From Spirochaetota bacterium (GTDB lineage Bacteria; Spirochaetota; UBA4802; UBA5550): a stretch of DNA of 64,000 nucleotides. The notes beneath the pieces were generated by a model, which saw only the letters and a program-made list of their open reading frames with translations, was not told the origin of the DNA and ran no database searches. The stretch covers positions 3,168,001-3,232,000 of the forward strand of contig CAXXHB010000003.1 in assembly GCA_963664815.2 (NCBI GenBank), written 5' to 3'. The position numbers and the translations under genes are program-made. Position 1 is the first letter of the stretch. Every line of letters starts with the position of its first letter. This document shows positions 25,238-42,172 of this stretch, piece by piece.

Positions 25238-25533
25238 ACAGTCTATCAGATAACTGTAGAAATAATTATTTTACGGGATTATTATTTTTTCCGGTAAAAT
25301 CACCGGATTTTTACTGTATGTTATTTCAAAGATCGGGAGAAAATGGGATTCGAATTCCTATGACTGTTCTGAGTATTTTCAAAGCATGCACTGTCCGATG
25401 TCAGTGATTTCGTCCAACAAAAGTCTTAACATAGCTGCTGTCTGAAGATTGAAATTATCTGTTCAATGTTTTTATACCGCTAATAAAGATTAGCGGTTTT
25501 TTTGGGGCAGCTACGTTAAGACTTCTATAAGTT
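25238..25533 (+). mobile_element. IS91-family element A, 3'-end remnant with oriIS-like motif and terminal hairpin
   Basis: Homologous to the ends of the 30360, 35803 and 41198 copies; GGATTCGAATTCCTAT then GTCCAAC and hairpin ending at GTT. Confidence 0.8.
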
Positions 25534-25537
25534 AGAT
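25412..25537. other. attC-like hairpin linked to the IS91-A end
   Basis: GTCCAAC..AGTCTTAACATAGCTGC ... GCAGCTACGTTAAGACT..GTTAGAT. Confidence 0.75.
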
Positions 25538-25553
25538 GATGGTTGTGAAACTT

Positions 25554-26531
25554 TTAATAAGAATCAATATGTCTAATTTTATCAATATACCATTTATTTT
25601 CTATTTTTGTTAAATACACATTACATGAGACAAACTCTTTTACTATCTGTTTTTGTGTAAAAGTTTTATCAACATCAATATTAAATCCTTCTTTCGATTT
25701 AGTTTTCAACAGCCAAGCTAATTTTGATGAATTTGTTGGCGAAATTAGCTGAAATAAAATCAAATTATCAAATACATCAACATCATAGTTATGTTCTTTT
25801 AGTTCGTTTTTAAAGGAATCAAATATTTTTATAATATTACTTAAATCTTTGACTTTTTTCTTATAAATTTGATCAATACAATCAAATAATGGAGCATCAG
25901 TTTTATCAGTATAATTTACAAATATTTCTGCAGATGCTGCATCAACTTTGGTTTTACGAATACTTAAATCTACAATTGAATCTGTATAGATATAACCTTC
26001 TTTAAAAGAAGATAAATTATTATTCCATCGTTGTTTTCTAAAATCAGAGCTAAGAAGTTTAAATGCATTCTCATAATTTTTATGTGATAAATGAGTATAA
26101 AAATATTTTACACAAGCATATGCAGAACCATGCTCATCCATTAAGTTCTTAATAAATTTTTTCACTCTATCACGCAGATTGTCTAATGATTCAGGTGTGA
26201 AATCATAAAAAACTTGTCTTAATCCAGTAACATCAAATGGAATTTTATCATCATTATTATATCTTGTAACAATTACATTATTAAAAGACAATGCATGAGC
26301 ATAACCTAATTCATAAAAAACATTGGGATTATTAGAACTAATATCTGCAATAATCATATCAGCGCTTTTTATATTATTTAAAACATCTTCCATAATTTGA
26401 CCGGGTTGTGCAATTTCATCAACTCTTATACATTTAACATCTAATTCATCACATATACTTTTGTATACATTGTTATACACATCTTCATACTTTGAAAATG
26501 GCATAATAACAAAACAATTTTTTTTATCCAT
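25554..26531 (-). CDS. Nucleoside 2-deoxyribosyltransferase/TIR-like domain protein (cassette)
   Basis: CFVIMPFS..CIRVDE..IIADISSNNPNVFYELGYAHAL..IPFDV; low GC; flanked by GTTAGATGATGGTTGTGAA / TTCACAACTATCATATCAAC. Confidence 0.75.
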   Translation of the reverse strand: MDKKNCFVIMPFSKYEDVYNNVYKSICDELDVKCIRVDEIAQPGQIMEDVLNNIKSADMIIADISSNNPNVFYELGYAHALSFNNVIVTRYNNDDKIPFDVTGLRQVFYDFTPESLDNLRDRVKKFIKNLMDEHGSAYACVKYFYTHLSHKNYENAFKLLSSDFRKQRWNNNLSSFKEGYIYTDSIVDLSIRKTKVDAASAEIFVNYTDKTDAPLFDCIDQIYKKKVKDLSNIIKIFDSFKNELKEHNYDVDVFDNLILFQLISPTNSSKLAWLLKTKSKEGFNIDVDKTFTQKQIVKEFVSCNVYLTKIENKWYIDKIRHIDSY

Positions 26532-26617
26532 TTAAAACTCCATAATATAAATTATTTTTAAATTCACAACTATCATATCAACGTCTTGGCTATACGACGT
26601 TGCGCGGTCTTTTGCGC

Positions 26618-28451
26618 GTCGAGTGGCGCGAAGGAACTTCCCCTCCGCGCTCTCACGGAACCAGACGTGAATCTCTCAATTCATCCGGCTCTTATTGTTC
26701 AGCCTTTACAGTAAAGAAGACCCCAATGCGTGAAAAGTTTCGGCTCTTTCATTGCTATGCGCTCTATCCAGTGCCTTGCTCTGCGCTTATGACCCCTTAA
26801 CCTTTTATATTTCTTCATTGCCCATTTTGTCAGTATTAAATCAAACAGCCTTAGTGTCGGATACATCGCCGACCGGTAAAAGGCATAGTAATAATTTATC
26901 CATCCTCTGATTCTGGCATTGAACATGCGGGATATCTCCTCAAGTGTCTGGCTGCTCCGAAGATGAACCTTCCACACTTTCATAGTTTCCCTTATATTTT
27001 TCATAGCCTTATCACTGGCGGCAGGACTGAAATTGACAAAGTATTTCCCATGTTTTGTTTTCGACATTCTGGCCTTAAAAGTAAATCCCAGAAAATCAAA
27101 ATTTACTACAGGATATCTCTGCTTTCTCTTGTCATCCCTGCAATAAACAATCTTTGTCTTCTCCGGATGAAGTTCAAGTTTACACTCATTCATCCTTTCT
27201 TCAAGTGCATGCTTCAACTGTATAGCCTGTTCTTCAGTGCTGCAATGACAGATACAGTCGTCTGCGTACCTTTCAAAAGGTATTGACGGATAGTTTCTCA
27301 CCATCCATGCGTCAAATGCGTAATGAAGATAAAGATTCGCAAGCAGCGGGCTTATTACTCCCCCCTGTGGCGTCCCTTTTGTTCTCTCCTCAAGACTGCC
27401 ATCCGGCATTTTCACCGGAGCTTTCAGCCAGCGTTCAATATACAGTATAACCCATCTGCTTTTTGTATGCTTACACACCGCCTTCATCATCAGATCATGA
27501 TCTATTGTATCAAAGAATCCTTTGATATCAAGGTCGATTACCCAGTCATATTTCCAGCAGTGTCTTCGGGCTCTTTCAACTGCATCTTTAGCCGAACGCC
27601 CTGGCCGATAGCCGTATGAATTTTGATGAAATACCTTTTCAAGTTCAGGCTCAAGCATACGCTTGACCACCGTCTGGGCTATCCTGTCAGATACTGCAGG
27701 TATTCCCAGTGATCTTTTCTTCCCGTCACTTTTCGGAATTTCAACACGTAATACCGGCGGAGGCAAATAACTTCCGGATGACATACGGTTCCAGATTTTA
27801 AACAGGTTATTTTTTAAATCTGATTCAAAATCTTTTAGCTTTACTCCGTCTGCTCCGGATGCTCCTCTGTTCGCTTTTACCTGTTTGTAACTATCCCATA
27901 CTTCCTGTCTGGATATTTGAAACGGCTTTGCCTTATCCAATCAATTCCTCCCGTTACCGGTTGATTAATCTCTAAAGCTGAACAATGTGCCCCCTTTGCT
28001 CCATCTCCATTACAGAGACTTCTTCACTACTACGGGACACTCCGCCCCTGTGCTTTGCCTCGGTACTCTCATCCTTGCGGGGCCACCGCTTGAAATTCTC
28101 CCTTATCATCAAAGCGACTTACTTCTCACATTGAACATAAAAGCCAGCTGTAAAGTCACACCATCTTTATGCCGGAAGCCGTCCGGACAGTAAACAGGTC
28201 TCCTCCGGACTTATCCCGGAATCCACATTACACCCCGGTTTTGACTTCAACTGTAGCCTCTTTCGACACCTCAACGATGATTCACTTTCGTTTGTCTCCT
28301 TACAACACACCTGACGTGTTTATCACGCCTTTTCCTTAACGCTCACCACAGTAGCTCTTTACCAATGCAGCTTAAGGTGGTTTGAAGCCTGTACCTGTAT
28401 ACCGGCTCCGAAGGGCCCTCCTTCATCTTTTACACTCCTTCCGTGACACAC
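26618..28451 (-). mobile_element. Complete group II intron, RmInt1-like (bacterial class D, no endonuclease)
   Basis: 5' GTGTG at 28451; DV GAGCCGGATGAATTGAGAGATTCACGTCTGGTTC; DVI ending ACTCGAC at 26618; EBS1 AATGTGG (28229-28223) complementary to 5' exon CCACATT. Confidence 0.92.
26699..27940 (-). CDS. ltrA: Group II intron reverse transcriptase/maturase
   Basis: KIWNRMSSGSY, SYGYRPGRS, DLDIKGFFD, GTPQGGVISPLLANLYL, RYADD, FDFLGFTF; no HNH domain. Confidence 0.97.
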   Translation of the reverse strand: MDKAKPFQISRQEVWDSYKQVKANRGASGADGVKLKDFESDLKNNLFKIWNRMSSGSYLPPPVLRVEIPKSDGKKRSLGIPAVSDRIAQTVVKRMLEPELEKVFHQNSYGYRPGRSAKDAVERARRHCWKYDWVIDLDIKGFFDTIDHDLMMKAVCKHTKSRWVILYIERWLKAPVKMPDGSLEERTKGTPQGGVISPLLANLYLHYAFDAWMVRNYPSIPFERYADDCICHCSTEEQAIQLKHALEERMNECKLELHPEKTKIVYCRDDKRKQRYPVVNFDFLGFTFKARMSKTKHGKYFVNFSPAASDKAMKNIRETMKVWKVHLRSSQTLEEISRMFNARIRGWINYYYAFYRSAMYPTLRLFDLILTKWAMKKYKRLRGHKRRARHWIERIAMKEPKLFTHWGLLYCKG

Positions 28452-28542
28452 AATGTGGCAAAGCCCAAGTGAGGTACTCTGAACTCTGCGGGTAAGCTTT
28501 GTTGTATGCCGTAAGCGAATTTTGGATTTAATTTATTTTTAT

Positions 28543-29868
28543 TCAAAAAGCAAAAAATTCCGTAATGCATGTATCCTCAAATTTAATCCCAGGGTAAACA
28601 TCTTTTATTGTTATACGAATTTTTGTAATTTCGTAATCGCAATCAAAATCTTCCGGGGCAATAAGAATACTTGTCACATTTATCTCTTTATTGACACCTT
28701 CAAAATCATCTTCGCCCCAATTCAGCAATGCAAAATATTTCGTTTTCAAGTCATCTATGGTTATAGTTTTACTAAATGAAAAAGAGCTTCCATCTGCTCC
28801 TTTCTTGTTACCCTGAATATCACATTGTACTTTTTTAATTCTAGAATTATTTGTAAACAATTTGCTGGATCTCATAAAACCATTCGCAATTGCAATATTT
28901 TTTACACCCTCTTTAAAATCGACTTCAATCCACTCTCCAATCCCATTTCCATCTGCACCTTCCGCCCATGCCGTTTTGAATGTCCCGTCGATAAGATTTT
29001 TAACCGAATAAGGCCCTTTAAGACTGCTCGAAGCGGATATGTTTTTTACTAACAAAGATGTTTTATTTTTCAACACCTGACTGCGGTATTTTTTATAATA
29101 TTTTTCAAGATCATATGCAATTTCAAGATCTCTTAATTTTGAAAAATTTACCTTTTCTATGATTACGCTCTGATTATAATTTTGTTTTTGAAAGCCTTTA
29201 ATCCCATTAATTTTAAAATCAATTTTTTTCATATCTAATACAAAGGTATCTATAACGATTTCTAATTTATCAACAACACCTTTACCCCAGCCAGCTGCAG
29301 GTTTAAAATTATATACGAAAGTTCTTATCCTGTCGCTCCCTTCATCACCGTTATAACTTGATCTTGCTAAATAATTAATTTGAATAATGTTTATCCCTTT
29401 GTTTAGTTTTATCTTTGACAAATACCACTTAATTTCATCATCTTCATCAGATTCAAAAAAATCTTCTCTTTTAATTTTATTTATTTTTTGAGTCAGTGTA
29501 ACATCAGAATTATTTATTGTCATCTTAAAATATTTAATAGAATCATTATCACTATTTTTAAAAGACTGGAAATCTACAAGCCCTACATGCTTGTTATAAA
29601 ATGGAAATCCGAAATCTACAGTTTTATTATCATCTCTACAGTTCAGTTCATATATTAACTGAATATTGACATAATCATCAATAGGTCTGATGAATAGCTT
29701 TTCAGATAAAAGATCAACATTTTCAAATTTTTTTAATTGGACATTACCTGTTGATACAAGTGTTGAACCCTCAATTGGGCCTCCGTTTGATTGAAGTGGA
29801 AATGAGTAGAATATGCTTACTGAAAAAAATAATAAACCAAGAATAGATTCTCTAACTATTTTCATCAC
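28543..29868 (-). CDS. Secreted protein: DUF4424-like N-terminus plus discoidin/NADase-type glycan-binding domain (cassette)
   Basis: Signal peptide; ASSSL..NLIDG..TAWAEG..GIGEWI..NGF..NSRIKK motif. Confidence 0.65.
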   Translation of the reverse strand: MMKIVRESILGLLFFSVSIFYSFPLQSNGGPIEGSTLVSTGNVQLKKFENVDLLSEKLFIRPIDDYVNIQLIYELNCRDDNKTVDFGFPFYNKHVGLVDFQSFKNSDNDSIKYFKMTINNSDVTLTQKINKIKREDFFESDEDDEIKWYLSKIKLNKGINIIQINYLARSSYNGDEGSDRIRTFVYNFKPAAGWGKGVVDKLEIVIDTFVLDMKKIDFKINGIKGFQKQNYNQSVIIEKVNFSKLRDLEIAYDLEKYYKKYRSQVLKNKTSLLVKNISASSSLKGPYSVKNLIDGTFKTAWAEGADGNGIGEWIEVDFKEGVKNIAIANGFMRSSKLFTNNSRIKKVQCDIQGNKKGADGSSFSFSKTITIDDLKTKYFALLNWGEDDFEGVNKEINVTSILIAPEDFDCDYEITKIRITIKDVYPGIKFEDTCITEFFAF

Positions 29869-29966
29869 AAACCTCTTTGAGTTTTATTATCAAAAATCTG
29901 CTATGAATTAACAGTATTTTGTATAAGAAAATATATAGTTAATAAAAAAAGTTCAATTCGCTTATA

Positions 29967-30359
29967 GTCTGGTAGGTCAGGAAGCTCGCACCTCCTTTCC
30001 CCCATAAGAACCGTACGTGGAAGTTTTTACCACAGGCACTTCCTCCGGTCGCCTTCACACGGCTCAAGCCGTCTAAAGCTGATTTTACAACCAGCCGCTG
30101 TTATCTGTTTGTATTCCCATTTTTCTATAGTAGAAATAATCAGAATCTACTTTTAGAAATGGGTTCCTGTCAAGACTTATCATTCTGTGCCGTACAATTT
30201 TAATGTGTCCCGCAGTAATGAGAATCTCCTCATCAGAGCAGAAAGTTTAAGTACCGGTTTTTAAGCCATAAAGAATTTTTCATCGGGTGTCTGAATCTGC
30301 CCCATATCCATAGAGCCTGAAAAAGAACAGTATCGAGTTTTAAAGGCTACCTTTGACAT
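29967..30359 (-). mobile_element. 3' fragment of a second group II intron (maturase domain X, DV, DVI)
   Basis: Minus strand KLDTVLFQALWIWGRFRHPMKNSLWLKNRY..IKIVRHRMISLDRNPF; GAGCCG..CACGTACGGTTC; ends CTACCAGAC. Confidence 0.85.
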
Positions 30360-31252
30360 TCATGAAAATGCTTTTATTCCACCTCGGCAAAGAACTTAAA
30401 AACGGTTCTTTAAAGACACCTGACGGCATTGAAGATACAGAAAAGCTTTTTAATCAGCTTGCGTATATTCCATAGGTTGTAAACTCCCAGCCTCCCGGCA
30501 AAGGTAAAAAGAAACCGGTAAACATAGTCCGCTATCTTTCGAGATACGTTGCTAAAAGTGCAGTCAGTGATAAACGGATACAGAAAGCGGAGAATGGAAA
30601 TGTTTACATCCGCTATTACAATAGAAAAAGGAAGCAGAGTAAAATGGAGGTTGTTACAGAGATTCAATTTATGAAACGGCTGGTACTGCATATTCTTCCT
30701 AAAGGATTTAAAAAGTCCGGTTCTTCGGGTTTATGGCAAACCATAACAGGGCAAACAATCTTGCCCTTTGCCGGATGTTTCTTGGTCAGCCCCTGGCGGA
30801 GCAGGATGAGCGGAGCAAAGAGCTTCTTGAGGATACAGCTTTCCTGTTCTGGAAATATTTCAGGATTGATATAACTCTCTGCAGGGAGTGCGAAAAGGGA
30901 CACATTCATTATATCCATGGCCTGTCGACTTACGGTTAGCTGTTATAAAGAAGTATATCCGCACAGATTTAAAAAACTGTTTTATAGAGAGGATAAGTAT
31001 GTCCGGAGCATTTGAGATTTTTCATAAAATCGCCATTCACAGTCTATCAGATAACTGTAGAAATAATTATTTTACGGAATTATTATTTTTTCCGGTAAGA
31101 TCATCGGATTTTTACTGTATGTTATTTCAAAGATCGGGAGAAAACGGTATTCAAATTCCTAAATATACTGTTCGATCCCAGTGGTTTCGTCCAACAGAGT
31201 CTTAACATAGCTGCTACCTGAAGATTAAAATTATCTGTTTAATGTTTTTATA
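30360..31252 (+). mobile_element. IS91-family element A, 3' transposase pseudogene, oriIS-like end, truncated hairpin
   Basis: RYLSRYV..HILPKGFKK..CRECEKG with stop and frameshift; GGTATTCAAATTCCTA; GTCCAAC. Confidence 0.85.
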
Positions 31253-31324: not shown

Positions 31325-32536
31325 TCATTGATTAACTGCTTCTCGCATGGAGTCTCTTTTGGATAATTCTCGTAATTGCAAATCTATTGATTTTATAACA
31401 ACTACGTCAGATTGAAATGGAAAAAGTCGATTTTCTTTAATTTCTTTTGTTTGAACAACTATTTTTAGCGGATAATTTTTTCCTACTGATGCTTTTTCTA
31501 ACTTTTCAATGGTTTCTTCAACTGTATCATATTCACCTTGAATTTTTACAGGTACAGGAAAGCCATTATGGTGCTCTTTTAAAAAACCATCTATGCCAGT
31601 ATTTCTTTGAACTGGTAATGCATTAATACTTGCAAGTATTGATAATTCATAATCATTTTTAACTAAATAATCTGATGTTCCTTTTTTTAAGAGATTAGAT
31701 TGAGTTATTACCATCTCATCAAGACGAGAATTTGAAAGATTTACAGCATCTATAGAAATATCAATCCCAATATATTTTCTGTTTAGTAGTTTTGCAGAAA
31801 CACAAGTTGTCCCACTACCACAAAATGGGTCTAAAACAATATCACCCTCATCAGTTGAAATATTTATAATTTGATTTAAAAGTAAAACCGGTTTTTGAGT
31901 TGGATAACCAGTTCTTTCTTTTGCTTTAGGATTAAGGTATGGAATTTCCCATACATCTGATAACGGGACACCTTTCTTTTCTTTTCCAATTACTATTTTT
32001 CCATTATCATCCTTTTTATATATTGATTTACCATTTGTATCTCTTTCACGCTCTTGTAATATTTGATCAATATTTGTCGTAGCTGAATAGTCTGTATATA
32101 TCGTGTTAAATTTAAATTCAGATGCTTTTGAATAAAAAAATATTATTTGATGAGAATTTAAAAGTCCTTTTTTAGAATTAGACCATCTTTTATAAGACCA
32201 AACTATTTCACTTTGAAAATTTTCAGTTTGAAAAACTTCATCTAATAAAATTCTTATATAATGTGATGCAGTTTTATCACAATGCAAAAAAACCGAACCA
32301 GTATTTTTAAGTATTCGATTACATTGGATCAATACTTCTTTAATTAAAAATGTATATTCATCAATTGAATCAAATTTATCATCAAATTCGTATATCTTTG
32401 AATTATCACGATTTGCTAAAGAATGCTTTTTCTGAGTAAAAAATGGTGGATCAAAATAGATTAAATCAATTGACTCAGAATTTATTTCTAATAATTTTTC
32501 TAAGCAGTTACCATGAATAATTTTATTTGTTTCCAT
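31325..32536 (-). CDS. N4/N6 DNA methyltransferase of a type II RM system
   Basis: DLIYFDPPF, YPTQKP, VLDPFCGSGTT (beta-class motif order). Confidence 0.92.
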   Translation of the reverse strand: METNKIIHGNCLEKLLEINSESIDLIYFDPPFFTQKKHSLANRDNSKIYEFDDKFDSIDEYTFLIKEVLIQCNRILKNTGSVFLHCDKTASHYIRILLDEVFQTENFQSEIVWSYKRWSNSKKGLLNSHQIIFFYSKASEFKFNTIYTDYSATTNIDQILQERERDTNGKSIYKKDDNGKIVIGKEKKGVPLSDVWEIPYLNPKAKERTGYPTQKPVLLLNQIINISTDEGDIVLDPFCGSGTTCVSAKLLNRKYIGIDISIDAVNLSNSRLDEMVITQSNLLKKGTSDYLVKNDYELSILASINALPVQRNTGIDGFLKEHHNGFPVPVKIQGEYDTVEETIEKLEKASVGKNYPLKIVVQTKEIKENRLFPFQSDVVVIKSIDLQLRELSKRDSMREAVNQ

Positions 32537-33161
32537 TATCGGGAGTCCTTTCATTAGCTATTTCTATTAAAATCTTTTTAAGATCAATACCTGTGTATTT
32601 ATATACATAATTCCAAGCCTCGTCACCAACATAATATTCTCCATTCACCGCCGAGTAAAGTGTCTTAAGAGTTTCCTGGATTTTAATAGCTTGAGCTCTT
32701 TGGGGATAATAAAACATAACCCGTATCGGCTTATAACCCTGATTTTGTATAACTTTTACCCTCGTGTGTTCTTTTGTAATATGATCTCCATCAGTTGTCG
32801 CATCTCGCCATTTTATTTCTATTGCATCATTACCATTTAAAAAGTCAATTTCAAATGTTTTTGGTCTTTGACCAATTGTATTGTTAATCTTTGTCTTTAT
32901 ACCATCAGGAAATTTATAATTAAAACATAGTGTAGCTGCTTCCCCTAAAAATGAACCAGCATATTTATATAAAAATCGACCGGTATTTTGATAAACATCA
33001 ATCAGTTTGCCTTCTTTTGATGTTATTCCAAGAACTCTATATATTAAATAATATGAATTATCATCATTATTCATCTCTTTTTTTCGTTGTTTAATTTTTT
33101 TATTGAGCTCAGATGCGTATTTTTCAGCTAATTTAATAATTTTGTTTTTTAATTCGTCCAT
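32523..33161 (-). CDS. ApaLI-like type II restriction endonuclease
   Basis: GRFLYKYAGSFL, FEID..AIEIKWRDATTDGDHITKEH; overlaps the MTase start. Confidence 0.8.
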   Translation of the reverse strand: MDELKNKIIKLAEKYASELNKKIKQRKKEMNNDDNSYYLIYRVLGITSKEGKLIDVYQNTGRFLYKYAGSFLGEAATLCFNYKFPDGIKTKINNTIGQRPKTFEIDFLNGNDAIEIKWRDATTDGDHITKEHTRVKVIQNQGYKPIRVMFYYPQRAQAIKIQETLKTLYSAVNGEYYVGDEAWNYVYKYTGIDLKKILIEIANERTPDNGNK

Positions 33162-33280: not shown

Positions 33281-33460
33281 GTCTGGTAGGTCGGGGAGTT
33301 TGCACCCCCTTTCCCCCATAAGAACCGTACGTGAAAGTTTTACCACAGGCACTTCCTCCGGTCGCCCTTCATACGGCTCAAGCAGTCTTAAGCTCTCTAT
33401 TCAACCAGCCGCTGTTATCTGTTTTTATTCCCATTTTTCTATAGTAGAAATAATCAGAAT
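33281..33460 (-). mobile_element. Short copy of the group II intron 3' fragment (DV-DVI)
   Basis: Near-identical to the starts of the 29967 and 40805 copies; ends CTACCAGAC. Confidence 0.85.
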
Positions 33461-33624
33461 AAAAGTATCCCTTCATGGTCTTTTTATAGTTCCATAATCA
33501 TAGTATTAATATATAGATAATAATCTACAACTGCTCTGGTTATCCGGTAATGACTGATACTTCAGCGGTTCAGGAATCTCTTTCACTACAAGCCTTCCGG
33601 TTTTACATGCAGTGCAGCATGAAA
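33449..33624 (-). mobile_element. IS91-family element B, degraded 3' remnant
   Basis: Homologous to 38284-38462; minus strand ..CCTACKTGRL.. Confidence 0.65.
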
Positions 33625-33731: not shown

Positions 33732-34595
33732 TTATTCTTTCGCCCCTGCTTTTTTAAGTATATCAACAATTTCAGAATAACCTTTCTCTTTCGCTATCTC
33801 TGATGCAGAATAACCCATGGCATTGTCTTTAGCATTGACGTCTGCACCTTTACTGATCAGCAGTTTTACAGCTTCAATATCTCCTGATTCTGCAGCATTA
33901 AACAGGGCGGTAAATCCATCCCTGTCTCTGGAGTTAACATTGGCTCCCCTGCTAATTAGCAGTTTAACTATTGTTATATTTACAGGATTGAACAGTCCTG
34001 ATGTGACATACATCAGGACTGTCTTGCCTTCATTATCTTTAGCATTGACATCTGCACCTTTATCCATCAGGATTTTAAAGATTTCAGTATTATCATTTTT
34101 TGAAGCGGCATACATCAGGGGATTGCATCCGTGGTCATCTTTTGCATTAACATCTGCTCCCTTGCTGACCAGGAGTTTTATAATTTCAGTGTTCCGGTAT
34201 ATTACCGAATATATTAAAGGTGTTTTACCTGAAATAGTTTTAGCATTTACATTCGCTTCATGGTTGATGAGGAGCGCGGCTATTTCTGTATTTTCTTTTT
34301 CTATAGCTACTATCAGGGGTGAGTAGCCTGAAGCTGTTTCGGGATTAATACCGGCGCCGTTACTTATAAGCAGCCTGACAATTTCTGTATTTTCTTTTTT
34401 TACAGCGAACATTACAGGTGTCCATCCGCCATCAGCTTTGTAATTGACATCCGCGCCTGCCGAGATTGTTGCCCTGACATCTTCCAGATTCCCGCTTTCT
34501 ACTGCATCAAGCAGTTTCCGATTCAGATCGTTGTTCTTCGCATATATTGCGTTTGCGGCCAGGCATATAAGAGTGATAATAAAAAAATTTTTCAT
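33732..34595 (-). CDS. Secreted ankyrin-repeat protein
   Basis: Signal peptide; repeated G.TPL..A....IVKLL.SKGADVNAKD units. Confidence 0.93.
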   Translation of the reverse strand: MKNFFIITLICLAANAIYAKNNDLNRKLLDAVESGNLEDVRATISAGADVNYKADGGWTPVMFAVKKENTEIVRLLISNGAGINPETASGYSPLIVAIEKENTEIAALLINHEANVNAKTISGKTPLIYSVIYRNTEIIKLLVSKGADVNAKDDHGCNPLMYAASKNDNTEIFKILMDKGADVNAKDNEGKTVLMYVTSGLFNPVNITIVKLLISRGANVNSRDRDGFTALFNAAESGDIEAVKLLISKGADVNAKDNAMGYSASEIAKEKGYSEIVDILKKAGAKE

Positions 34596-35800: not shown

Positions 35801-35802
35801 AA

Positions 35803-36222
35803 AAAGGACACATTCATTATATCCATGGCCTGACCGCTTACGGTTAGCTGTTATAATGAAGTTTAGCTGTACTGCACAGATTTTAAAAACTGTTTCATAG
35901 AGAGGATAAGTATGTCCGGAGCATTTGAGATTTTTCATAAAATCGCCATTCACAGTCTATCAGATAACTGTAAAAATAATTATTTTACTGGATTATTATT
36001 TCCCCTGGTAAAATCACCGGATTTTTACTGTATGTTATTTCAAAGATCGGGATAAAACGGTATTCAAATTCCTATATATACTGTTCGATCCCAGTGGTTT
36101 CGTCCAACAGAGTCTTAACATAGCTGCTGTCTGAAGATTGAAATTATCTGTTTAATGTTTTTATACTGCTAATAAATATTAGCGGTTTTTTTGAGGCAAC
36201 TACGTTAAGACTTCTATAAGTT
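35803..36222 (+). mobile_element. IS91-family element A, 3'-end remnant with hairpin (36102-36226)
   Basis: KGHIHYIHGL tail; GGTATTCAAATTCCTATA; GTCCAAC hairpin ending CTATAA|GTT. Confidence 0.85.
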
Positions 36223-36273
36223 AAATGCTGTTGCCAAGGTTATAAAAAAGTAGAATCCTATATTGTTTATCAA

Positions 36274-36918
36274 TTATTTTCTATATTTTTTTAATAATTC
36301 ACTTTTCTTTTCAGTCGGTAAAACTTGTTTCGTAGGTATTTTAATTTCATTAAAAACGGTTTCTAGTTGTCCACCAGACTTAATTGTTTTCTGATATATC
36401 ATTTCAGTAGCGGATTTATTATTTTCAATAACATATACTATTTTTTCATAATCTTTAGAACTTGCTGCAGCAATTCCGCCTCCCGCTCCTCCTAATAAAA
36501 GAAGTGCATAATTAGTTTTTTCAGAACTCGAATCATAAAATGCAGTAATGTCACCTAAGTAAACTTTTTTACCACCACCATTATTTTCAAAGTTAATTCT
36601 TTTATCATTTTCAAAAAAAAACAATTTTGAATTAAAACCATTTTTACAGGCAATACGTGATAAATAGTTTTTACCGATTTTACCTTTCCCAACAAAAAAA
36701 CCGTTTTCATCTATATTCATAAAAGATTTTTGACTGTTCTGCTCATCCATGAAGATAAGATTACAACTTCTTGTTACATCCTCACCATCTATGAAAATAT
36801 GAAAAGTACCATAAAAAACTCCAGTTCCATTTTCAATTTCTAGATCATTAAAATTTTTCGTAGTAGTAGCACAACCTGTTATTAAAATACTTAATAGCAT
36901 GGTAAAAATAATTTTCAT
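36274..36918 (-). CDS. Lipoprotein (cassette)
   Basis: Lipobox LITGC; flanked by GTTAAATGCTGTTGCCA / TGGCAATTGCATTTAAC. Confidence 0.8.
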   Translation of the reverse strand: MKIIFTMLLSILITGCATTTKNFNDLEIENGTGVFYGTFHIFIDGEDVTRSCNLIFMDEQNSQKSFMNIDENGFFVGKGKIGKNYLSRIACKNGFNSKLFFFENDKRINFENNGGGKKVYLGDITAFYDSSSEKTNYALLLLGGAGGGIAAASSKDYEKIVYVIENNKSATEMIYQKTIKSGGQLETVFNEIKIPTKQVLPTEKKSELLKKYRK

Positions 36919-36980
36919 TTTTAATCTCCAAATGTTTAATTCTAATGTATATATTTTTCTAAAAAAAATATGGCAATTGC

Positions 36981-37180
36981 ATTTAACGGCCAGGCTAACT
37001 GACGTTGGCGATCAGCCAATGTGCTGACCTGAAAATCTACAAAACCCTGACACATCATATTCAAAAACACAACTCAAATGTCCAGGCTACAAACATGGAA
37101 GCCAAGCACGGATGCTATTCCGTTCCTTTGAAAATCAAAAAGTTCATTCAGCCGTGCGCCGCTGTTAGCCGGTGTTATCG
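36981..37180. other. Long attC-like site between two cassettes
   Basis: ATTTAAC-GGCCA-GGCTAAC ... GTTAGCC-GGT-GTTATCG; internal GACGTTGGC..GCCAATGTG resembles the intron-hit site. Confidence 0.65.
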
Positions 37181-37251
37181 GCTGTAGCAACAACCACTAA
37201 TATTTTATTTTGCCCTCGTTCACGGACGAATGAGGGCAGGTCACAGGTTAA

Positions 37252-37968
37252 TCATTCAATTAATTCAAAGCTTTTAAATAAATATTCTTTTGAATCTTTT
37301 TTGTAATACATTTTAAAATCAATCAGGCAACCTTTTACAATATCAAAATGTGAAGTTACATGCAATCCCAGTAAATTATAACCATCAATATATGCAATAT
37401 TTGAAGTTATACTTTTTAATGTATAATTGATTAATATTTTATCAGGTTTTCCTTCATTGTCATATTCAAAGATATTATTCCATGATTCACCTATAGAAAT
37501 CTCTTTCTCCGAGAAATAAATTGGGATGATAATAGGGTTACCGTTTGGGACATTTTTGCGTTTAAACCTAAATAAGTTGAAGCCAAAAATGCAATTACTA
37601 TATACATAGTCACTTTCATTTTTAATAAACTCACCAGATGGCTTGATACGATTTTCAATTTCACTGCCCACCGTATAAAAATATCCCGGATATGATAATG
37701 GATTACAGCATGACTTCTTATCAAAGATTGTAAGGGTGTATGATAACTTCAAAATATCATTATCATTTTCTTTTATAGATATTTTTACAATACTTAAATC
37801 AGAATAAATTCCTGTTAATTGTTTTACTAATGCATTTTCTGGAAATGACTGAAGTTGTATTTTATATTTCAAAACTTCATTAGGCTTGAAAACCAAGGTT
37901 ACTTTATCAGAAGTATATCCTTGTGAAACGATTGACATAGCGAATATTAGAGTAAGAATTTTTTTCAT
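37252..37968 (-). CDS. Secreted hypothetical protein (cassette)
   Basis: Signal peptide; flanked by GTTATCGGCTGTAGCAACAA / TTGTTGCCATTGCCGATAAC. Confidence 0.75.
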   Translation of the reverse strand: MKKILTLIFAMSIVSQGYTSDKVTLVFKPNEVLKYKIQLQSFPENALVKQLTGIYSDLSIVKISIKENDNDILKLSYTLTIFDKKSCCNPLSYPGYFYTVGSEIENRIKPSGEFIKNESDYVYSNCIFGFNLFRFKRKNVPNGNPIIIPIYFSEKEISIGESWNNIFEYDNEGKPDKILINYTLKSITSNIAYIDGYNLLGLHVTSHFDIVKGCLIDFKMYYKKDSKEYLFKSFELIE

Positions 37969-38032
37969 AAAATATATTTATCCTTATTTACTCGGCCACG
38001 GATGGCCGACCACAAAGTTTTGTTGCCATTGC

Positions 38033-38095
38033 CGATAACGTTAAGAAGAGTATCTTAATCAATCTTCTCCGATTGAGATACTCTTCAAGTTGGAC
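38033..38095. other. Short attC-like hairpin linked to the IS91-B end
   Basis: CGATAAC..GAAGAGTATCTTAATC / GATTGAGATACTCTTC..GTTGGAC. Confidence 0.7.
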
Positions 38096-38617
38096 AGAAC
38101 CGCCTGAGCAACAGCCCGATATAATATTAATGGATTTTAAATTACCGGATTTATAATTGCAAGAATAATTCGTATGTAGAAATTTGAATAAATAAACAAT
38201 TGCTTCTTTATAACAACCAATATATCTGCTTTTAAAATATACTGTTAAACGATACTTTCCGGAATAAATTATAAGTATTTCTTAATAATCAGAATAAAAG
38301 TATCCCTTCATGGTCTTCCTACAGCCACCACAATCATAATACATCAATATGCAGATAATAATATACAACCGCTCTGGTTCGCTGGAGGTGAACGATACCT
38401 CACCGGTTCAAGAATCTCTTTTACAATAAGCCTTCCGGTTTTGCATGCAGGGCAGCATGAAAGATTTTTACCTGTGACACGCAGATAGATTTCACTCCAT
38501 GTCTGCGGTATACTTTCATTCTTCTTTTGAATTTCGTAAAACTCGCGGCATGCCTCAACAGCCTACTTTTTGTTTCTGTGTGATAGAATTACAAAGTATC
38601 TGATGCGGACTCAAAGC
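38089..38617 (-). mobile_element. IS91-family element B, 3' remnant with end region
   Basis: Minus strand VRIRYFVILSHRNKK..TGKNLSCCPACKTGRL..RSPP; later GGTAATTTAAAATCCATTAA and GCGGTTCTGTCCAAC. Confidence 0.75.
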
Positions 38618-38649: not shown

Positions 38650-38875
38650 AAAACCGGCAAAATTATATCGGGATAGATCAATTTTATTTTTCCACGACCC
38701 AGTGAATCGTATATTCCAGTGTTCCCGGGATGATTTGCTTTGTAAAATCAACCGGAATCATTATACCCTGCTCACATGAATATTGTTTATACCGTGCCAT
38801 GGATGCCTCCAATGGCTTTATTCACAGCATAACTATTATGTAATTGCAATCAATTTATACTTTTTTTACAATCTC
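38650..38875 (-). mobile_element. IS1182-family left end and transposase N-terminus
   Basis: ATG at 38800: MARYKQYSCEQGIMIPVDFTKQIIPGTLEYTIHWVVE; terminal GAGATTGTAAAAAAA. Confidence 0.75.
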
Positions 38876-39123
38876 GTTATATGAAAGCGCTTAACAACGA
38901 CCAGTCGCAGCAATACACGGATGTATTGCTGCGTTCCGACGAAACAGATTATATCTCAGAACATGAGCAATCATATTTTAATATTTTGCAGTATCAGTAT
39001 AAGTCAATAAAATAATTGACATATGCTTATAAAGAGTAATTATTTGAATATTCGATGAAACGAGTAGAGGAGATTCATTCATTCTAAAATATTTATCTTA
39101 TATTAAAAAAGGAGACATATATT

Positions 39124-39696
39124 ATGAAGAAAAATGTTTCATCAGCAGTTTTAGTAATGGTTCTGTTAATGTTTGCAGGAACAGGAGTTTTATTTGTAAG
39201 CGAAAGTAACGCGAAGAGTAAGACATACAGAATAGGAGATAAAGGCCCTGCAGGAGGCTGGATATTTTATGATAAAGGGAATTCTTCTGATGGATGGCGG
39301 TATTTAGAAGCCGCACCAAATGATCAGAGCGCTGAATCAGCGTGGGGCTGTTATGAAAAATCAATTCCCGGTGCGCAAGGAACAGCTATTGGAACGGGAA
39401 AAACCAATACTGCAGTAATAATTGGAAGCTGCGATGAATCAGGAATAGCAGCTAAAGTCGCAGCTGATTATCGTGGCGGAGGAAAAAGCGACTGGTTTTT
39501 ACCATCTGATGATGAACTGAATCTGATGTATCATAATTTGCATATAAAAGGAATTGGCGGTTTCGCCGAAGGCGACTATTGGAGTTCGTCTGAGGGCCCT
39601 GCGGACGGCGCGGCGAAACAGAATTTCATCGCTGGCGGTCATGACTACTACAATAAGGTCATGACGTTAAGGGTTAGGGCTGTCCGGGCTTTTTAA
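39124..39696 (+). CDS. Exported Lcl/DUF1566-like C-type-lectin-fold protein, candidate DGR target
   Basis: YRIGDKGPAGGWIFYDKG, DWFLPS.DEL, YWSSSE...VRAVRAF*; AGGAG RBS. Confidence 0.85.
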   Translation: MKKNVSSAVLVMVLLMFAGTGVLFVSESNAKSKTYRIGDKGPAGGWIFYDKGNSSDGWRYLEAAPNDQSAESAWGCYEKSIPGAQGTAIGTGKTNTAVIIGSCDESGIAAKVAADYRGGGKSDWFLPSDDELNLMYHNLHIKGIGGFAEGDYWSSSEGPADGAAKQNFIAGGHDYYNKVMTLRVRAVRAF

Positions 39697-39711
39697 CAAT
39701 TTTTCACAGGG

Positions 39712-39900
39712 CAACCGCTCTGGTTCGCCGGAGGTGAACGATACCTCACCGGTTCAGGATTCTCTTTCACTACAAGCCTTCCGGTTTTGCATGCAGGGCA
39801 GCATGAAAGATTTTTACCTGTGATACGCAGATAGATTTCACTCCATGTCTGCGGTATACTTTCATTCTTCTTTTGAATTTCGTAAAACTCGCGGCATGCC
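39712..39900 (-). mobile_element. IS91-family element B, transposase C-terminal remnant
   Basis: Near-identical to 38366-38554; ACREFYE..CCPACKTGRL..RSPP. Confidence 0.75.
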
Positions 39901-39904
39901 TATC

Positions 39905-40208
39905 ACCATTCTGAGGATAGAACCCTTATTTGATATACAAATTAAGCGGCAATTTTAAATCGGTGGTGACATCTATCATCGTGGACTGGAAAAGGTTAAC
40001 ACAATCTAGGCTCTTATCTGTATTGCTCATAATTTCCGGAAGCCCGCCCGGTTGGAATACGGATTATAATTAAATAAAGTAAAATATTCCCGAAGACACA
40101 CAATCTTCGGGATACATACAGGATTGTCAAAATAAAAGCAGAGGGTATTCAGCCGATATTATTTTAGAGTACTCAATTTTTTTAATAAGCTACTTTTGCG
40201 ACAGACTC
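39905..40208 (+). mobile_element. IS1182-family C-terminal remnant and right end
   Basis: RIEPLF..HRGLEKVNT..ALICIAHNFRK; terminal TTTTGCGACAGACTC. Confidence 0.65.
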
Positions 40209-40240
40209 GTTTGTTGTGTGCAGTATCGCGGTTTACACAT

Positions 40241-40777
40241 TCATTTATCAATTACAAATGTAACTTCTTGAAATGTTCCAGGCCGTGGTACAATTGGAGG
40301 AAATATACATCCAGGTATGCATGCAATTGTTTTTTTTATCGCTTTACTATCATCAAGTTTTAGTTTTATTGTTTCATCCTGTTTAATCTTCAAATGTAGC
40401 ATTCGAATTGAACCAATTCCAGGGTTTTGCGAAGTACCGTACGTATCAGCCTGTCCAGTTGCCGCATGTAGGATATATTCTATTTTTAAATCACCAACTG
40501 GTACTGGAAATTTATATTTAAAATCATCTTTTTTATAAATCTTTTTATCATTTTGATCAAAATAATGATTACCAAAAGTTCCATAAAAATATTCTTCATC
40601 ATTCACAATAAATTTACAAGACCAGTGATCAATATATTTATAATAATTGAAGTCTAATACTATATAACCATGCGCAGATAATAAAATTGAATTTTCTTTT
40701 TCTTTAATCTGTCGTGATGGTGTACACGATGTAATAAAAAATAGGATAAGTATAATTATTGATATATGTTTTTGCAT
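40241..40777 (-). CDS. Lipoprotein (cassette)
   Basis: Lipobox FITSC; cassette edge GTTGTGTGCAGTATCGC at 40213, partial mirror GCGATA at 40799-40804. Confidence 0.78.
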   Translation of the reverse strand: MQKHISIIILILFFITSCTPSRQIKEKENSILLSAHGYIVLDFNYYKYIDHWSCKFIVNDEEYFYGTFGNHYFDQNDKKIYKKDDFKYKFPVPVGDLKIEYILHAATGQADTYGTSQNPGIGSIRMLHLKIKQDETIKLKLDDSKAIKKTIACIPGCIFPPIVPRPGTFQEVTFVIDK

Positions 40778-40804
40778 TTACTAACTCCTAAAGTTTTAGC
40801 GATA

Positions 40805-41197
40805 GTCTGGCAGGTCGGGGAGTTTGCACCCACTTTCCCCCATAAGAACCGTACGTGAAAGTTTTACCACAGGCACTTCCTCCGGTCGCCCTTCATACGG
40901 CTCAAGCCGTCTAAAGCTGATTATACAACCAGCCGCTGTTATCTGTTTGTATTCCCATTTTTCTATAGTAGAAATAATCAGAATCTTCTTTTAAAAATGG
41001 GTTCCTGTCAAGACTTATCATTCTGTGTCGTACAATTTTAATGTGTCCCGCAGTAATGAGAATCTCCTCATCAGAGCAGAAAGTTTAAGTACTGGTTTTT
41101 AAGTCATAAAGAATTTTTCATCGGGTGTCTGAATCTGCCCCATATCCATAGAGCCTGAAAAAGAACAGTATCGAGTTTTAAAGGCTACCTTTGACAT
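40805..41197 (-). mobile_element. 3' fragment of the second group II intron (copy of 29967-30359)
   Basis: Same domain X, DV and DVI sequence and same junction CTTTGACAT|TCATGAAA. Confidence 0.85.
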
Positions 41198-42147
41198 TCA
41201 TGAAAATGCTTTTATTCCACCTCGGCAAAGAACTTAAAAACGGTTCTTTAAAGACACCTGACGGCATTGAAAATATTGCAAAGCTTTTTAATCAGCTTGC
41301 GCATATTCCATGGGTTGTAAACTCCCAGCCTCCCGGCAAAGGTAAAAAGAAACCGGTAAACATAGTCCGCTATCTTTCGAGATACGTTGCTAAAAGTGCA
41401 GTCAGTGATAAACGGATACAGAAAGCGGAGAATGGAAATGTTTACATCCGCTATTACAATAGAAAAAGGAAGCAAAGTAAAATTGAGGTTGTTACAGAGA
41501 TTCAATTCATGAAACGTCTGGCACTGCATATTCTTCCTAAAGGATTTAAAAAAGTCCGGTTCTTCGGTTTTATGGCAAACCATAACAGGGCAAACAATCT
41601 TGCCCTTTGCCGGATGTTTCTTGGTCAGCCTCTGGCAGAACAGTATGAGCAGAGCAAAGAGCTTCCTGATGATACGGCTTTCCTGTTCTGGAAATATTTC
41701 AGGATTGATATAACTCTCTGCAGGGAGTGCGGAAGAGGACACATTCATTATATCCATGGCCTGTCGACTTAAGGTTAGCTGTTATAAAGAGTATATCCGC
41801 ACAGATTTAAAAAACTGTTTCATAGAGAGGATAAGTATGCCCGGAGCTTTTGAGATTTTGCATAAAATCGCCATTCACAGTCTATCAGATAACTGTAGAA
41901 ATAATTATTTTACGGGATTATTATTTTTTCCGGTAAAATCACCGGATTTTTATTGTATGTTATTTCAAAGATCGGGAGAAAACGGTATTCAAATTCCTAT
42001 ATATACTGTTCGATCCCAGTGGTTTCGTCCAACAGAGTCTTAACATAGTTGTTGTCTGAAGATTAAAATTATCTGTTTAATGTTTTTATACCGCTAATAA
42101 AGATAAGCGGTTTTTTTGAGGCAACTACGTTAAGACTTCTATAAGTT
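41198..42147 (+). mobile_element. IS91-family element A, 3' half of transposase, oriIS-like end and hairpin (42027-42151)
   Basis: WVVNSQPP..VRYLSRYV..LHILPKGFKKVRFFGFMAN..CREC; GGTATTCAAATTCCTATA; hairpin ends CTATAA|GTT. Confidence 0.88.
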
Positions 42148-42172
42148 GTGCGAAGAACACGAATTAATACTA

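What the first reader, a model, noticed from the sequence alone, without database searches (positions are those of the whole stretch)
25238..42151. IS91-family ends carry an attC-like hairpin and join cassettes exactly at the GTT crossover: possible rolling-circle/integron hybrid system
Seen: IS91-A remnants start at 25238, 30360, 35803 and 41198, so their left ends vary. Their homology does not stop at the oriIS-like motif (GGTATTCAAATTCCTATA). It continues ~150 bp through GGTTTCGTCCAAC and a ~125-bp hairpin, and in three copies ends at ...CTTCTATAA|GTT (25531, 36220, 42145). Each time an unrelated cassette follows whose far end mirrors the bases after GTT. A different element, IS91-B, shows the same layout on the minus strand: ori-like motif, GCGGTTCTGTCCAAC, a different 63-bp hairpin, then GTT of a cassette. 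Established: GTT is the integron crossover triplet; attC recombines as folded ssDNA; IS91 HUH transposases make ssDNA; several IS91 members encode an upstream tyrosine recombinase. Inference: these elements carry their own att site and either integrate into cassette arrays or capture cassettes by tyrosine-recombinase exchange. No recombinase is present in this window.
Basis: partly seen in the sequence, partly recalled or inferred. Interest (0 to 1): 0.9.

Follow-up and report, generated by a model that had tools for sequence, protein, structure and literature searches.

The report
IS91-type elements docked on attC sites
The repeats are the hairpin-bearing right ends of rolling-circle (IS91-type) jumping genes that also encode an integron-like recombinase and that sit exactly at the recombination sites of a gene-cassette array, a habit I did not find clearly described in print.

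Summary
Four IS91-A remnants and one IS91-B remnant continue past the oriIS-like motif through a conserved 15-nt box (..GGTTTCGTCCAAC) and a hairpin. Homology stops at GTT.

The hairpin belongs to the element. Sixteen lineages (Spirochaetota, a Clostridium plasmid, a Sinorhizobium plasmid, metagenomes) share one layout: left repeat GTTGAAC.., tyrosine recombinase, HUH transposase, CCATAG motif, right repeat ..GTTCAAC, then a lineage-specific hairpin. The two repeats fit the integron R'/R'' consensus. One metagenome contig shows right end joined to left end, an attC-like site.

The only full copy in this genome has the predicted upstream recombinase. It lies between two ordinary cassettes at the G|TT of an attC. 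In 13 of 13 metagenome copies with enough flank, the left neighbour is the 3' half of an attC.

The genome has no canonical IntI, so the arrays are integrase-less cassette clusters. Lineage B lies forward. Lineage A is antiparallel to the array's attC sites in all six arrays, and I infer that it sits at R''.

Not shown: which enzyme makes the joint. IS91 chemistry next to a xTTx word predicts the same junction.

This scan's earlier AI notes report the same element type in other genomes.

The parts
25238..25530 (+). IS91-A remnant (variant b). It holds only the ori region, the right repeat IRR (GTCCAAC at 25412-25418), hairpin A (25421-25524) and the spacer. The boundary GTT is at 25531-25533.
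30356..31252 (+). IS91-A remnant: the C-terminal half of the transposase (Y2_Tnp profile from position 51, with 1 TAG), the ori region, IRR and the 5' half of hairpin A only. Homology is lost at about 31252.
35803..36219 (+). IS91-A remnant: ori region, IRR (36094-36108), hairpin A (36111-36212) and spacer. The boundary GTT is at 36220.
41191..42144 (+). IS91-A remnant: a 193-aa C-terminal transposase fragment (41191-41772), ori region, IRR (42019-42033), hairpin A (42036-42137) and spacer. The boundary GTT is at 42145.
38040..38610 (-). IS91-B remnant: the 3' end of the transposase gene, the ori region, IRR (38089-38104), hairpin B (38045-38086) and the spacer TTAAC. The boundary G|TT on the minus strand is AAC at 38037-38039 on the plus strand.
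33453..33624 (-). Short internal IS91-B fragment.
39712..39901 (-). Short internal IS91-B fragment.
26580..28499 (-). Ordinary attC-like site of type hpC (R'' GCATACAAC, spacer AAA, stem, spacer CAAGAC, G|TT), split by a full group II intron at 26618-28451.
36979..37180 (.). A 200-nt attC-like site with boxes GCATTTAAC and GTTATCGGC and inner boxes GGCTAAC / GTTAGCC. It is single-copy in this genome.
36223..36978 (-). Cassette-like unit with one 214-aa ORF (36274-36918), flanked by the exact 9-nt mirror GTTAAATGC / GCATTTAAC.
37175..38036 (-). Cassette-like unit with one 238-aa ORF (37252-37968), flanked by the exact 9-nt mirror GTTATCGGC / GCCGATAAC.
25534..26579 (-). Cassette-like unit with a 325-aa ORF (weak matches to nucleoside 2-deoxyribosyltransferase and TIR families), lying between hairpin A and the hpC site.
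19950..20045 (-). Degenerate hpC-type site near the apparent left edge of the array.

Best explanation
The repeats are the right-end modules of two lineages (A and B) of a distinct IS91-family clade. A full element is about 2.45 kb and reads as follows:
- left repeat IRL (GTTGAACAAAACCGC) followed by a small hairpin;
- a Xer/IntI-like tyrosine recombinase gene;
- a HUH (Y2) transposase gene;
- a CCATAG/CCTATA motif shared with classical IS91;
- right repeat IRR (GCGGTTTCGTYCAAC);
- 1-4 nt, a lineage-specific hairpin, then 5-8 nt.

Flanking DNA begins with xTT, mostly GTT. IRL and IRR fit the integron R' (GTTRRRY) and R'' (RYYYAAC) consensus. When the ends are joined, IRR-hairpin-IRL has the layout of a folded attC.

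Shown: in this genome the elements lie in integrase-less cassette arrays (CALIN type), at the R boxes of attC sites. Lineage B lies forward, at the G|TT of R', where a cassette would be inserted. Lineage A is antiparallel to the array's attC sites.

Inferred: lineage A sits at R''. The element leaves its donor as single-stranded DNA made by the HUH transposase. The joined ends fold. Integration into the folded or double-stranded attC R box is then done either by the element's own recombinase or by the HUH enzyme itself. All copies in the window are dead remnants.
For: Element architecture.
- The full copy is at C3:3695084-3697537, on the minus strand. It encodes a 287-aa recombinase (PF13495 and PF00589; NF040815 206 bits; TIGR02249 164.6 bits) and a 418-aa transposase (NF033538 429.5 bits against a cut-off of 125).
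- Its ends are 14 of 16 complementary (GTTGAACAAAACCGCC / GGCGGTTCTGTCCAAC).
- The IRR plus hairpin module is present in 13 of 17 spirochaete loci read downstream of the transposase gene. It is also present in L021 and in a Clostridium and a Sinorhizobium plasmid, where the recombinase and IS91 transposase genes are annotated side by side.
- Sixteen lineages each fold into a hairpin directly after IRR. In 11 of 16, none of 200 shuffles folds as well.
- The variants of IRL and IRR covary (GAAC, GTAC or GCAC in both repeats of one element).
- Within the hairpin A family, 91.4% of cells pair, against 19-40% when the partner is slid. Three pairs show compensatory changes.
- Several contigs end exactly at the module's end (L021, L029, L032).

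Targeting.
- Around the full copy the order is orf443 with an hpC attC, then |GTTGAAC..IS91-B..hairpin B-TTAAC|, then GTTAGACGAC, orf245, orf147, GTCGTCTAAC and another hpC attC. The mirror GTTAGACGAC / GTCGTCTAAC is 10 of 10.
- I examined 18 close metagenome copies. Sixteen have IRL. All 13 with at least 60 nt of left flank end in a stem plus a 4-6 nt spacer directly before GTTGAAC. These represent 11 distinct contexts. The stem finder showed the full R''-AAA-stem..stem-AAGAC layout in at least 8 of them.
- Six right junctions are all ..AAC|GTTA.. with six different flanks. Two of the downstream cassettes end in a mirrored R'' followed by an hpC attC.
- Hairpin A is antiparallel to hairpins B and C in all 6 arrays (28 against 13 + 9 sites). 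The same arrangement is seen in metagenome locus L080.
- Contig L132 holds IRR-hairpin-TAAAC-GTTGAAC(IRL), that is, right end joined to left end.

Comparison with classical IS91. In E. coli W plasmid pRK1, IS91 ends 4 nt after AATTCCTAT and is flanked by CAAG in transposase sense. The extra IRR-hairpin module and the xTT flank in the same sense are therefore special to this clade.
Against: - No experiment and no read evidence of movement. Laying contigs of 4 runs gave no circle or empty-site joint.
- The junction sequence cannot tell a G|TT crossover from HUH insertion next to a GTTx word.
- The recombinase lacks the IntI-specific insert. TIGR02249 matches in two stretches, 1-179 and 237-313.
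- No full lineage A copy exists here. Only one was found among the relatives (G016, on a 2260-nt contig without its left end). Placing lineage A at R'' therefore rests on orientation and on right flanks alone.
- Hairpin A is not thermodynamically distinctive.
- Six complete hairpin A copies have no IS91 ori sequence beside them.
- In other lineages the left flanks (L030, L032-L035, L069) are not recognisable hpC sites.
- L132 could be a tandem pair and not a circle.
Confidence: 0.75

Rival explanations
1. This is plain IS91 rolling-circle transposition. The hairpin is only a long oriIS subterminal palindrome. The GTT is the family's target word. attC sites are hit because the HUH transposase prefers xTTx words next to hairpins in single-stranded DNA. 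The recombinase has another job, for example resolving multimers.
For: Passages of PMC13181058 state the following about IS91-family elements. They insert without duplication beside 5'-CTTG, GTTC or GTCC. Their oriIS carries subterminal palindromes. Their terIS has a palindrome next to a GTTC cleavage word. The bottom-strand circle is the form that is inserted.

Here IRL reads ..palindrome-TTT-GTTC|AAC on the bottom strand. A roughly 100-nt unit sits exactly at GTC|CAAC of IRR in 6 of 13 hairpin B copies, as if GTTG on the bottom strand were an IS91-type target word.
Against: In classical IS91 the target word lies on the other strand (flank CAAG in transposase sense). Here the flank after the hairpin reads xTT in transposase sense in 13 of 15 lineages. 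If nicking followed the classical polarity, at IRR|CAAC, the hairpin would be left behind. Yet it travels with the element. A four-letter word cannot explain 13 of 13 left flanks being attC halves. The recombinase gene is kept across three phyla.
Confidence: 0.3
2. The units are passive integron cassettes. The hairpin with its boxes is a true attC, the IS91 and recombinase genes are cargo, and a host IntI moves them.
For: The position and polarity of lineage B are exactly those of a cassette. Canonical IntI occurs in 8 of 122 genomes of the order, 2 of 63 in the same family. The attC beside the IntI of relative G015 resembles hpC.
Against: No IntI reaches the cut-off in this genome; the best score is 220.7 bits against 265. 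The same architecture occurs on a Clostridium plasmid, where the flanks are a simple inverted repeat and not an array. IRL and IRR are conserved in sequence across lineages, unlike the free-varying R boxes of cassettes. Lineage A is always inverted, which IntI-driven insertion does not produce.
Confidence: 0.08
3. The shared flank comes from segmental duplication of one ancestral insertion followed by deletions. This is the refuting case named by the first reader.
For: The copies at 30356 and 41191 share their truncation point and upstream DNA. Blocks at 3.687 and 3.692 Mb are 99.8% identical over 987 nt.
Against: The right flanks differ in most of the 31 hairpin A copies and the 13 hairpin B copies. 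The module occurs next to intact genes in other genera and phyla.
Confidence: 0.02

Closest known systems
IS91 family (IS91, IS801, IS1294), including the members I recall ISfinder listing with an upstream tyrosine-recombinase gene (ISShvi3, ISSod25, ISAzo26; names recalled, from no call)
   Same: Y2 HUH transposase with a zinc-binding N-terminus. A TTCCTAT-type motif near the 3' end. A small palindrome next to a GTTC word at the left end. No target duplication.
   Different: The element does not end at the TTCCTAT motif. It carries a further IRR plus hairpin module of about 100-170 nt. The flank word has the opposite polarity. The ends fit integron R-box consensus. Lineage B is found at attC sites. 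[quoted passage not shown]
Integron gene cassettes and attC sites; CALIN arrays
   Same: R''/R' boxes, two stems with unpaired spacers, lengths of 63 and 125 nt, R'' complementary to the unit's first bases, and a position at the G|TT between two cassettes.
   Different: The unit encodes its own recombinase and a HUH transposase. The boxes are conserved in sequence. The stems show a conserved single mismatch, not the bulged bases known for attC. There is no IntI in this genome.
attC-targeting parasites: IS1111-attC elements and group IIC-attC introns (recalled; the Shewanella paper PMC9229058 mentions both in the passage read)
   Same: Mobile elements found at a fixed place and orientation in attC sites. 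A group II intron sits inside an hpC site in this window.
   Different: The enzymes differ: DEDD transposase or reverse transcriptase in those elements, against a HUH transposase plus tyrosine recombinase here.
CTX phage and other elements integrated by Xer recombinases on folded single strands (recalled; PMC4439123 seen only in the listing)
   Same: Rolling-circle replication supplies a single strand whose hairpin is a tyrosine-recombinase site. This is the mechanism proposed here.
   Different: There the recombinases are the host's XerCD and the target is dif. Here both enzymes are encoded by a 2.45-kb insertion sequence and the target is attC.

Membership tests
IS91 family | HUH/Y2 transposase with an N-terminal zinc-binding domain | tested here: met
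   NF033538 429.5 bits (cut-off 125); PF04986 and PF14319 on the full copy. The window fragment 41191-41772 matches PF04986 at 1.7e-25.
IS91 family | The element ends a few bases after the oriIS motif and is flanked there by the target word (CAAG or GAAC in transposase sense) | tested here: not met
   Classical IS91 in pRK1 reads ..AATTCCTATTGAT|CAAG. Here homology continues 100-170 nt further and the flank reads xTT.
IS91 family | terIS: a subterminal palindrome next to a GTTC-type cleavage word | tested here: met
   GTTGAAC-AAAA-CCGCCTGAAGGCGG reads ..GTTC|AAC on the bottom strand. It is conserved in 16 of 18 metagenome copies and in 6 other lineages. This is a sequence-level test only.
IS91 family | No target-site duplication | tested here: met
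   The left flanks end ..AAGAC or ..AAAAC and the right flanks begin GTTA... There is no direct repeat.
IS91 family | Rolling-circle transposition through a bottom-strand circle | not testable with these tools
   The only related evidence is an end-to-end junction in contig L132. No joint appeared in the laid contigs.
attC site | R'' RYYYAAC and R' GTTRRRY boxes that pair | tested here: met
   IRR is GTCCAAC or GTTCAAC and IRL is GTTGAAC. The full copy is 14 of 16 complementary. The two boxes covary across lineages.
attC site | An inner stem (L boxes) set off by unpaired spacers, with a total length of about 57-141 nt | tested here: met
   Spacers of 2-3 nt and 5-8 nt; site lengths of 63 nt (B) and 125 nt (A).
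attC site | Extrahelical bases that set strand choice | tested here: inconclusive
   Reading the arms printed, I see only one conserved mismatch in each stem (A opposite C in hairpin A, C opposite A in hairpin B). No bulged bases are evident. IntegronFinder and HattCI were not available.
attC site | Recombined by an integron integrase at G|TT | not testable with these tools
   The homology breaks fit G|TT but are ambiguous over the three shared letters.
Integron integrase (IntI), for the element's recombinase | Score over the TIGR02249 cut-off, and the IntI-specific insert | tested here: not met
   164.6 bits against a cut-off of 265. The match is split into 1-179 and 237-313, so profile positions 180-236 have no counterpart. 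The best family is NF040815 at 206 bits, under its cut-off of 220.
Complete integron in this genome | intI next to attI and a cassette array | tested here: not met
   No TIGR02249 match over the cut-off in G000. The arrays of attC-bounded units exist, so they are CALIN-like.

The most novel reading that the evidence does not exclude
These IS91-type elements are self-integrating cassettes. The HUH transposase peels off a single-stranded circle. The joined ends of that circle fold into an attC-like site. The element's own IntI-like recombinase, which lacks the IntI insert, recombines this site with the R box of a resident attC. If so, the recombinase could also serve in trans as the missing integrase of IntI-less cassette arrays such as those of this genome. 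The clade would then be a living link between rolling-circle transposons and integrons.
Probability: 0.35. Interest if true: 0.9.

Novelty: new variant of a known kind. Interest (0 to 1): 0.7.

Why it matters
As I recall from ISfinder, the role of the tyrosine-recombinase gene carried by some IS91 members is unknown.

This locus and its relatives give that question a concrete, testable form. The ends of the clade mimic an integron attC. The joined form exists in DNA. The best-sampled lineage sits at the exact cassette insertion point of attC sites.

If the recombinase acts on the folded junction, this would be a small autonomous system that couples single-strand production to structure-specific recombination. 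It might also explain how cassette arrays without an integrase stay dynamic.

Practically, such elements split attC sites and can confound cassette annotation. Earlier AI notes of this scan report relatives in a clinical E. coli resistance integron; I did not test that here.

Tried and rejected
- Own scan for RYYYAAC..GTTRRRY pairs: too strict and uninformative. I replaced it with a stem-based scan.
- Idea that the elements hit the centre of loop-less palindromes: none of the 586 AACGTT sites in the genome has at least 16 of 20 complementary flanks. Rejected.
- Mirror test between neighbouring sites: only 4 of 24 adjacent pairs had at least 9 of 12 matches. The mirror is not a general rule for arrays full of truncated elements.
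- Approximate mirrors are worthless as evidence: 286 of 300 random arms score as well.
- I first read the 95-nt segment left of the full copy as a deleted group II intron. It is an intact hpC attC, and the window's intron lies inside such a site.
- Canonical IntI loci of relatives (G039, G028, G311): my scan showed no array, and BLAST found no hairpin A, B or C in 14 loci. Only G015 showed one cassette with an attC beside IntI.
- Search for a full lineage A element with its left end: 2 of 400 other genomes of the phylum matched, and neither has the left end. The genome-contig scan gave 4 loci.
- Papers: five searches found no description of attC targeting or attC-like ends in IS91 elements that carry a recombinase. 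The exception is the ISShvi3 remark in PMC9229058 (passage).
- How much of each paper I saw: PMC13181058, PMC10288648 and PMC9345347 were read as passages only, and the last two held nothing relevant. Supplementary files were not opened. The supplementary tables of PMC13181058 on target words may bear on the polarity argument.
- Sequencing runs: 5 runs hold the full copy or part of it. Contigs of 4 runs laid on it showed breaks and loose ends at the hairpin boundary and at GTC|CAAC, but no go-back or excision joint. This is no evidence either way.
- Fold energy of hairpin A alone is not significant.


Full report
**What is in the window**

DNA downstream of IS91-type transposase fragments runs through GGTATTCAAATTCCTATA, then GGTTTCGTCCAAC, then an 18-bp outer stem that encloses a terminator-like inner stem. 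In three copies the homology stops at CTTCTATAA|GTT (25531, 36220, 42145). The copy near 31 kb breaks off inside the hairpin.

A second element type, IS91-B, lies on the minus strand with GGCGGTTCTGTCCAAC, a 42-nt hairpin, TTAAC and GTT. No tyrosine recombinase gene lies in the window.

**Genome-wide picture**

- The 141-nt hairpin A unit gives 34 BLAST matches. Thirty-one copies keep the 3' end. Twenty-eight of these are followed by GTT; the exceptions read CGT, ATT and GTG.
- Twenty of the 31 are preceded by IS91-type ori sequence in two variants. Five are 5'-truncated hairpins. Six are complete hairpins without ori sequence.
- Hairpin B has 13 copies, and 12 are followed by GTT.
- The copies cluster in six arrays. 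In every array hairpin A is antiparallel to hairpin B and to a third site type, hpC (28 against 13 + 9 sites).
- All four lineage A transposase fragments start at Y2_Tnp profile position 51-52. They are dead copies. Those at 30356 and 41191 are duplicates of one another.

**The full copy**

The only full-length IS91 transposase gene of the genome belongs to lineage B. A 287-aa tyrosine recombinase gene lies upstream of it and overlaps it.

The recombinase has the SAM_4 and catalytic domains. It scores highest against NF040815 (206 bits, cut-off 220). TIGR02249 follows at 164.6 bits (cut-off 265), split so that the IntI-specific region has no counterpart. It is therefore IntI-like but not an IntI.

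The genome has no IntI over the cut-off. Eight of 122 genomes of the order do.

**The hairpin belongs to the element**

Homologues of the lineage B transposase occur in 30 of 400 other genomes of the phylum. In 13 of 17 loci read downstream the same order recurs:
- a CCATAG-type motif;
- 12-20 nt;
- a 15-nt box, GCGGTTTCGTTCAA(C/T);
- 1-4 nt;
- a hairpin whose sequence differs from lineage to lineage;
- 5-8 nt;
- then the flank.

The same order holds for three further sources. One is a MAG contig with a transposase only 53% identical to lineage A. Its hairpin keeps the stem through a compensatory change, GTCTTAAC/GTTAAGAC to GTCTTACC/GGTAAGAC. The others are a Clostridium estertheticum plasmid and a Sinorhizobium fredii plasmid, where the recombinase and IS91 transposase genes are annotated side by side.

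All sixteen lineages fold into a hairpin right after the box. In 11 of them, none of 200 mononucleotide shuffles folds as well. The next letters are xTT in 13 of 15 lineages, and GTT in 9. Several contigs stop exactly at the module's end.

Within the hairpin A family covariation is modest because the sequences are similar. Cells pair in 91.4% of cases, three pairs show changes on both sides, and slid controls give 19-40%.

Segmental duplication of one insertion cannot explain this.

**The ends**

The left end is GTTGAACAAAACCGC followed by a small hairpin. It is the inverted repeat of the right box (14 of 16 in the full copy). The variable core (GAAC, GTAC, GCAC) changes together in both repeats of one element.

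GTTGAAC fits GTTRRRY and GTTCAAC fits RYYYAAC. Joined ends would therefore read R''-spacer-stem-loop-stem-spacer-R', the layout of an attC.

One metagenome contig (L132) contains exactly this joined form: IRR, hairpin, TAAAC, GTTGAAC and then the left end. It may be a circle or a head-to-tail pair. Either way the hairpin travels with the element.

**Where the elements sit**

Read on the minus strand, the region around the full copy is a co-oriented array:
- orf443 with an hpC site;
- then |GTTGAAC .. recombinase, transposase .. GTCCAAC-TT-hairpin B-TTAAC|;
- then GTTAGACGAC, orf245, orf147, GTCGTCTAAC-AAA-hpC-AAAAC-G|TTAGCC.

The 10-nt mirror shows that the downstream unit is a regular cassette with its own attC. 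The element occupies the cassette insertion point.

Sixty-eight metagenome loci encode relatives of the recombinase. I examined the 18 closest:
- Sixteen have the left repeat.
- Thirteen have at least 60 nt of left flank.
- All 13 end in a stem plus AAGAC, AAAAC or a similar spacer directly before GTTGAAC. That is the 3' half of an hpC-type attC, in 11 distinct contexts.
- Six right junctions have six different GTTA.. flanks.
- In two loci the following cassette ends in a mirrored R'' and an hpC site.

hpC resembles the attC next to a canonical IntI in relative G015. The arrays here are therefore best read as CALIN-type cassette clusters.

**Lineage A**

Lineage A is always inverted relative to hpC, to hairpin B and to the cassette ORFs. 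Its GTT is then the complement of the AAC of a cassette's R''. The exact 9-nt mirrors around 36220/36979 and 37174/38031 fit this. So do the 20-nt mirrors at 1.378 and 3.687 Mb.

Because no full lineage A copy with a left flank was found, this remains an inference.

**Mechanism**

Passages of PMC13181058 state the following:
- IS91-family elements insert without duplication beside CTTG, GTTC or GTCC.
- oriIS carries palindromes.
- terIS has a palindrome next to its cleavage word.
- The bottom-strand circle is the form that is inserted.

A hairpin at the end and a xTTx flank are therefore not by themselves foreign to IS91.

Two observations argue against the plain reading. First, in classical IS91 (pRK1) the element ends 4 nt after AATTCCTAT and the flank is CAAG in transposase sense. 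Here 100-170 nt more belong to the element, and the outer flank is xTT in the same sense. Second, the last letters of the right box (CAAC) and the left end (GTTC|AAC on the bottom strand) do have the classical polarity. A nick at the right box would, however, leave the hairpin behind.

The data thus show two nested boundaries. The inner one looks like IS91. The outer one, at which copies actually diverge, looks like an attC.

Which enzyme makes the outer joint is open. I put about 0.35-0.4 on the element's recombinase, about 0.3 on the HUH enzyme alone, and little on a host IntI.

**Comparison and novelty**

The elements are members of the IS91 family by their transposase. They fail the family's end rule.

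They work like integron cassettes and like attC-targeting parasites (IS1111-attC, group IIC-attC introns). The proposed mechanism resembles the single-strand integration of CTX phage.

In five literature searches I found only a passing remark on ISShvi3 next to an attC.

Earlier AI notes of this scan describe the same element type at attC sites in other genomes, some forward and some 'backwards'. My results agree with them, and I reached them before reading those notes.

What this locus adds is two lineages with opposite orientation rules side by side in arrays without IntI, and the joined-end contig.

**Limits**

The evidence is all sequence comparison. Many copies within this genome are not independent. 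Supplements were not read.

Noticed in passing
window 26618-28451 (minus strand): A full-length group II intron. It has matches to RF01999 and RF00029, a 413-aa RT/maturase ORF at 26699-27940, and runs from GTGTG to AC. It sits inside an hpC-type attC in the same orientation as the cassettes. It is single-copy in the genome.
   Followed up: partly
window 29966-30146, 33281-33381, 40805-40905 (minus strand): Remnants of group II intron 3' ends. Two of them match RF00029. One lies directly upstream of each duplicated lineage A remnant.
   Followed up: no
L003:6400-6604 (G000:C3:1371400-1371604) and five other places: A unit of about 100-125 nt (GAGCAAAC..AAAAAAGCCGGC) is inserted exactly between GTC and CAAC of the lineage B right repeat in 6 of 13 hairpin B copies. 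It could be a small non-autonomous IS91-type element using GTTG on the other strand as its target word.
   Followed up: partly
window 31325-33161 (minus strand): An ApaLI-like restriction enzyme gene (PF09499, 1.5e-92) with an N6/N4 DNA methylase gene. Other cargo of the array includes an ankyrin-repeat protein (33732-34595), an NADase-translocation/F5-8 type C domain protein (28543-29868) and a 325-aa ORF with weak TIR-like matches.
   Followed up: no
L132:1576-1700 (metagenome contig): The right end of a lineage B relative is joined directly to its left end (IRR-hairpin-TAAAC-GTTGAAC..). This is either a circle junction or a tandem pair.
   Followed up: partly
L001:12136-13209 (G000:C3:1972136-1973209, minus strand): A 357-aa tyrosine recombinase. 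It scores NF040815 235 bits (over its cut-off of 220), is 36% identical to the element's recombinase and has an 85-aa N-terminal extension. It lies next to an ORF whose N-terminus looks ParA-like to me (read, not scanned against a family library). It sits at the edge of the 1.96-Mb array.
   Followed up: partly
L069:1436-1466 and 3952-3981 (Clostridium estertheticum plasmid NZ_CP077626.1): The two flanks of this copy are inverted repeats of each other (GTCGTGAAAACAGAC / GTTCATTTCACGAC). It looks as if the element had landed in the loop of a simple hairpin and not in an attC.
   Followed up: partly
L003:13896-14903 and L003:18740-19745 (G000:C3 1378896-1379903 and 1383740-1384745): A duplicated 1-kb block that starts exactly at the outer boundary of hairpin A. 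It carries a DUF998 membrane-protein gene where the IS91 body would be.
   Followed up: partly
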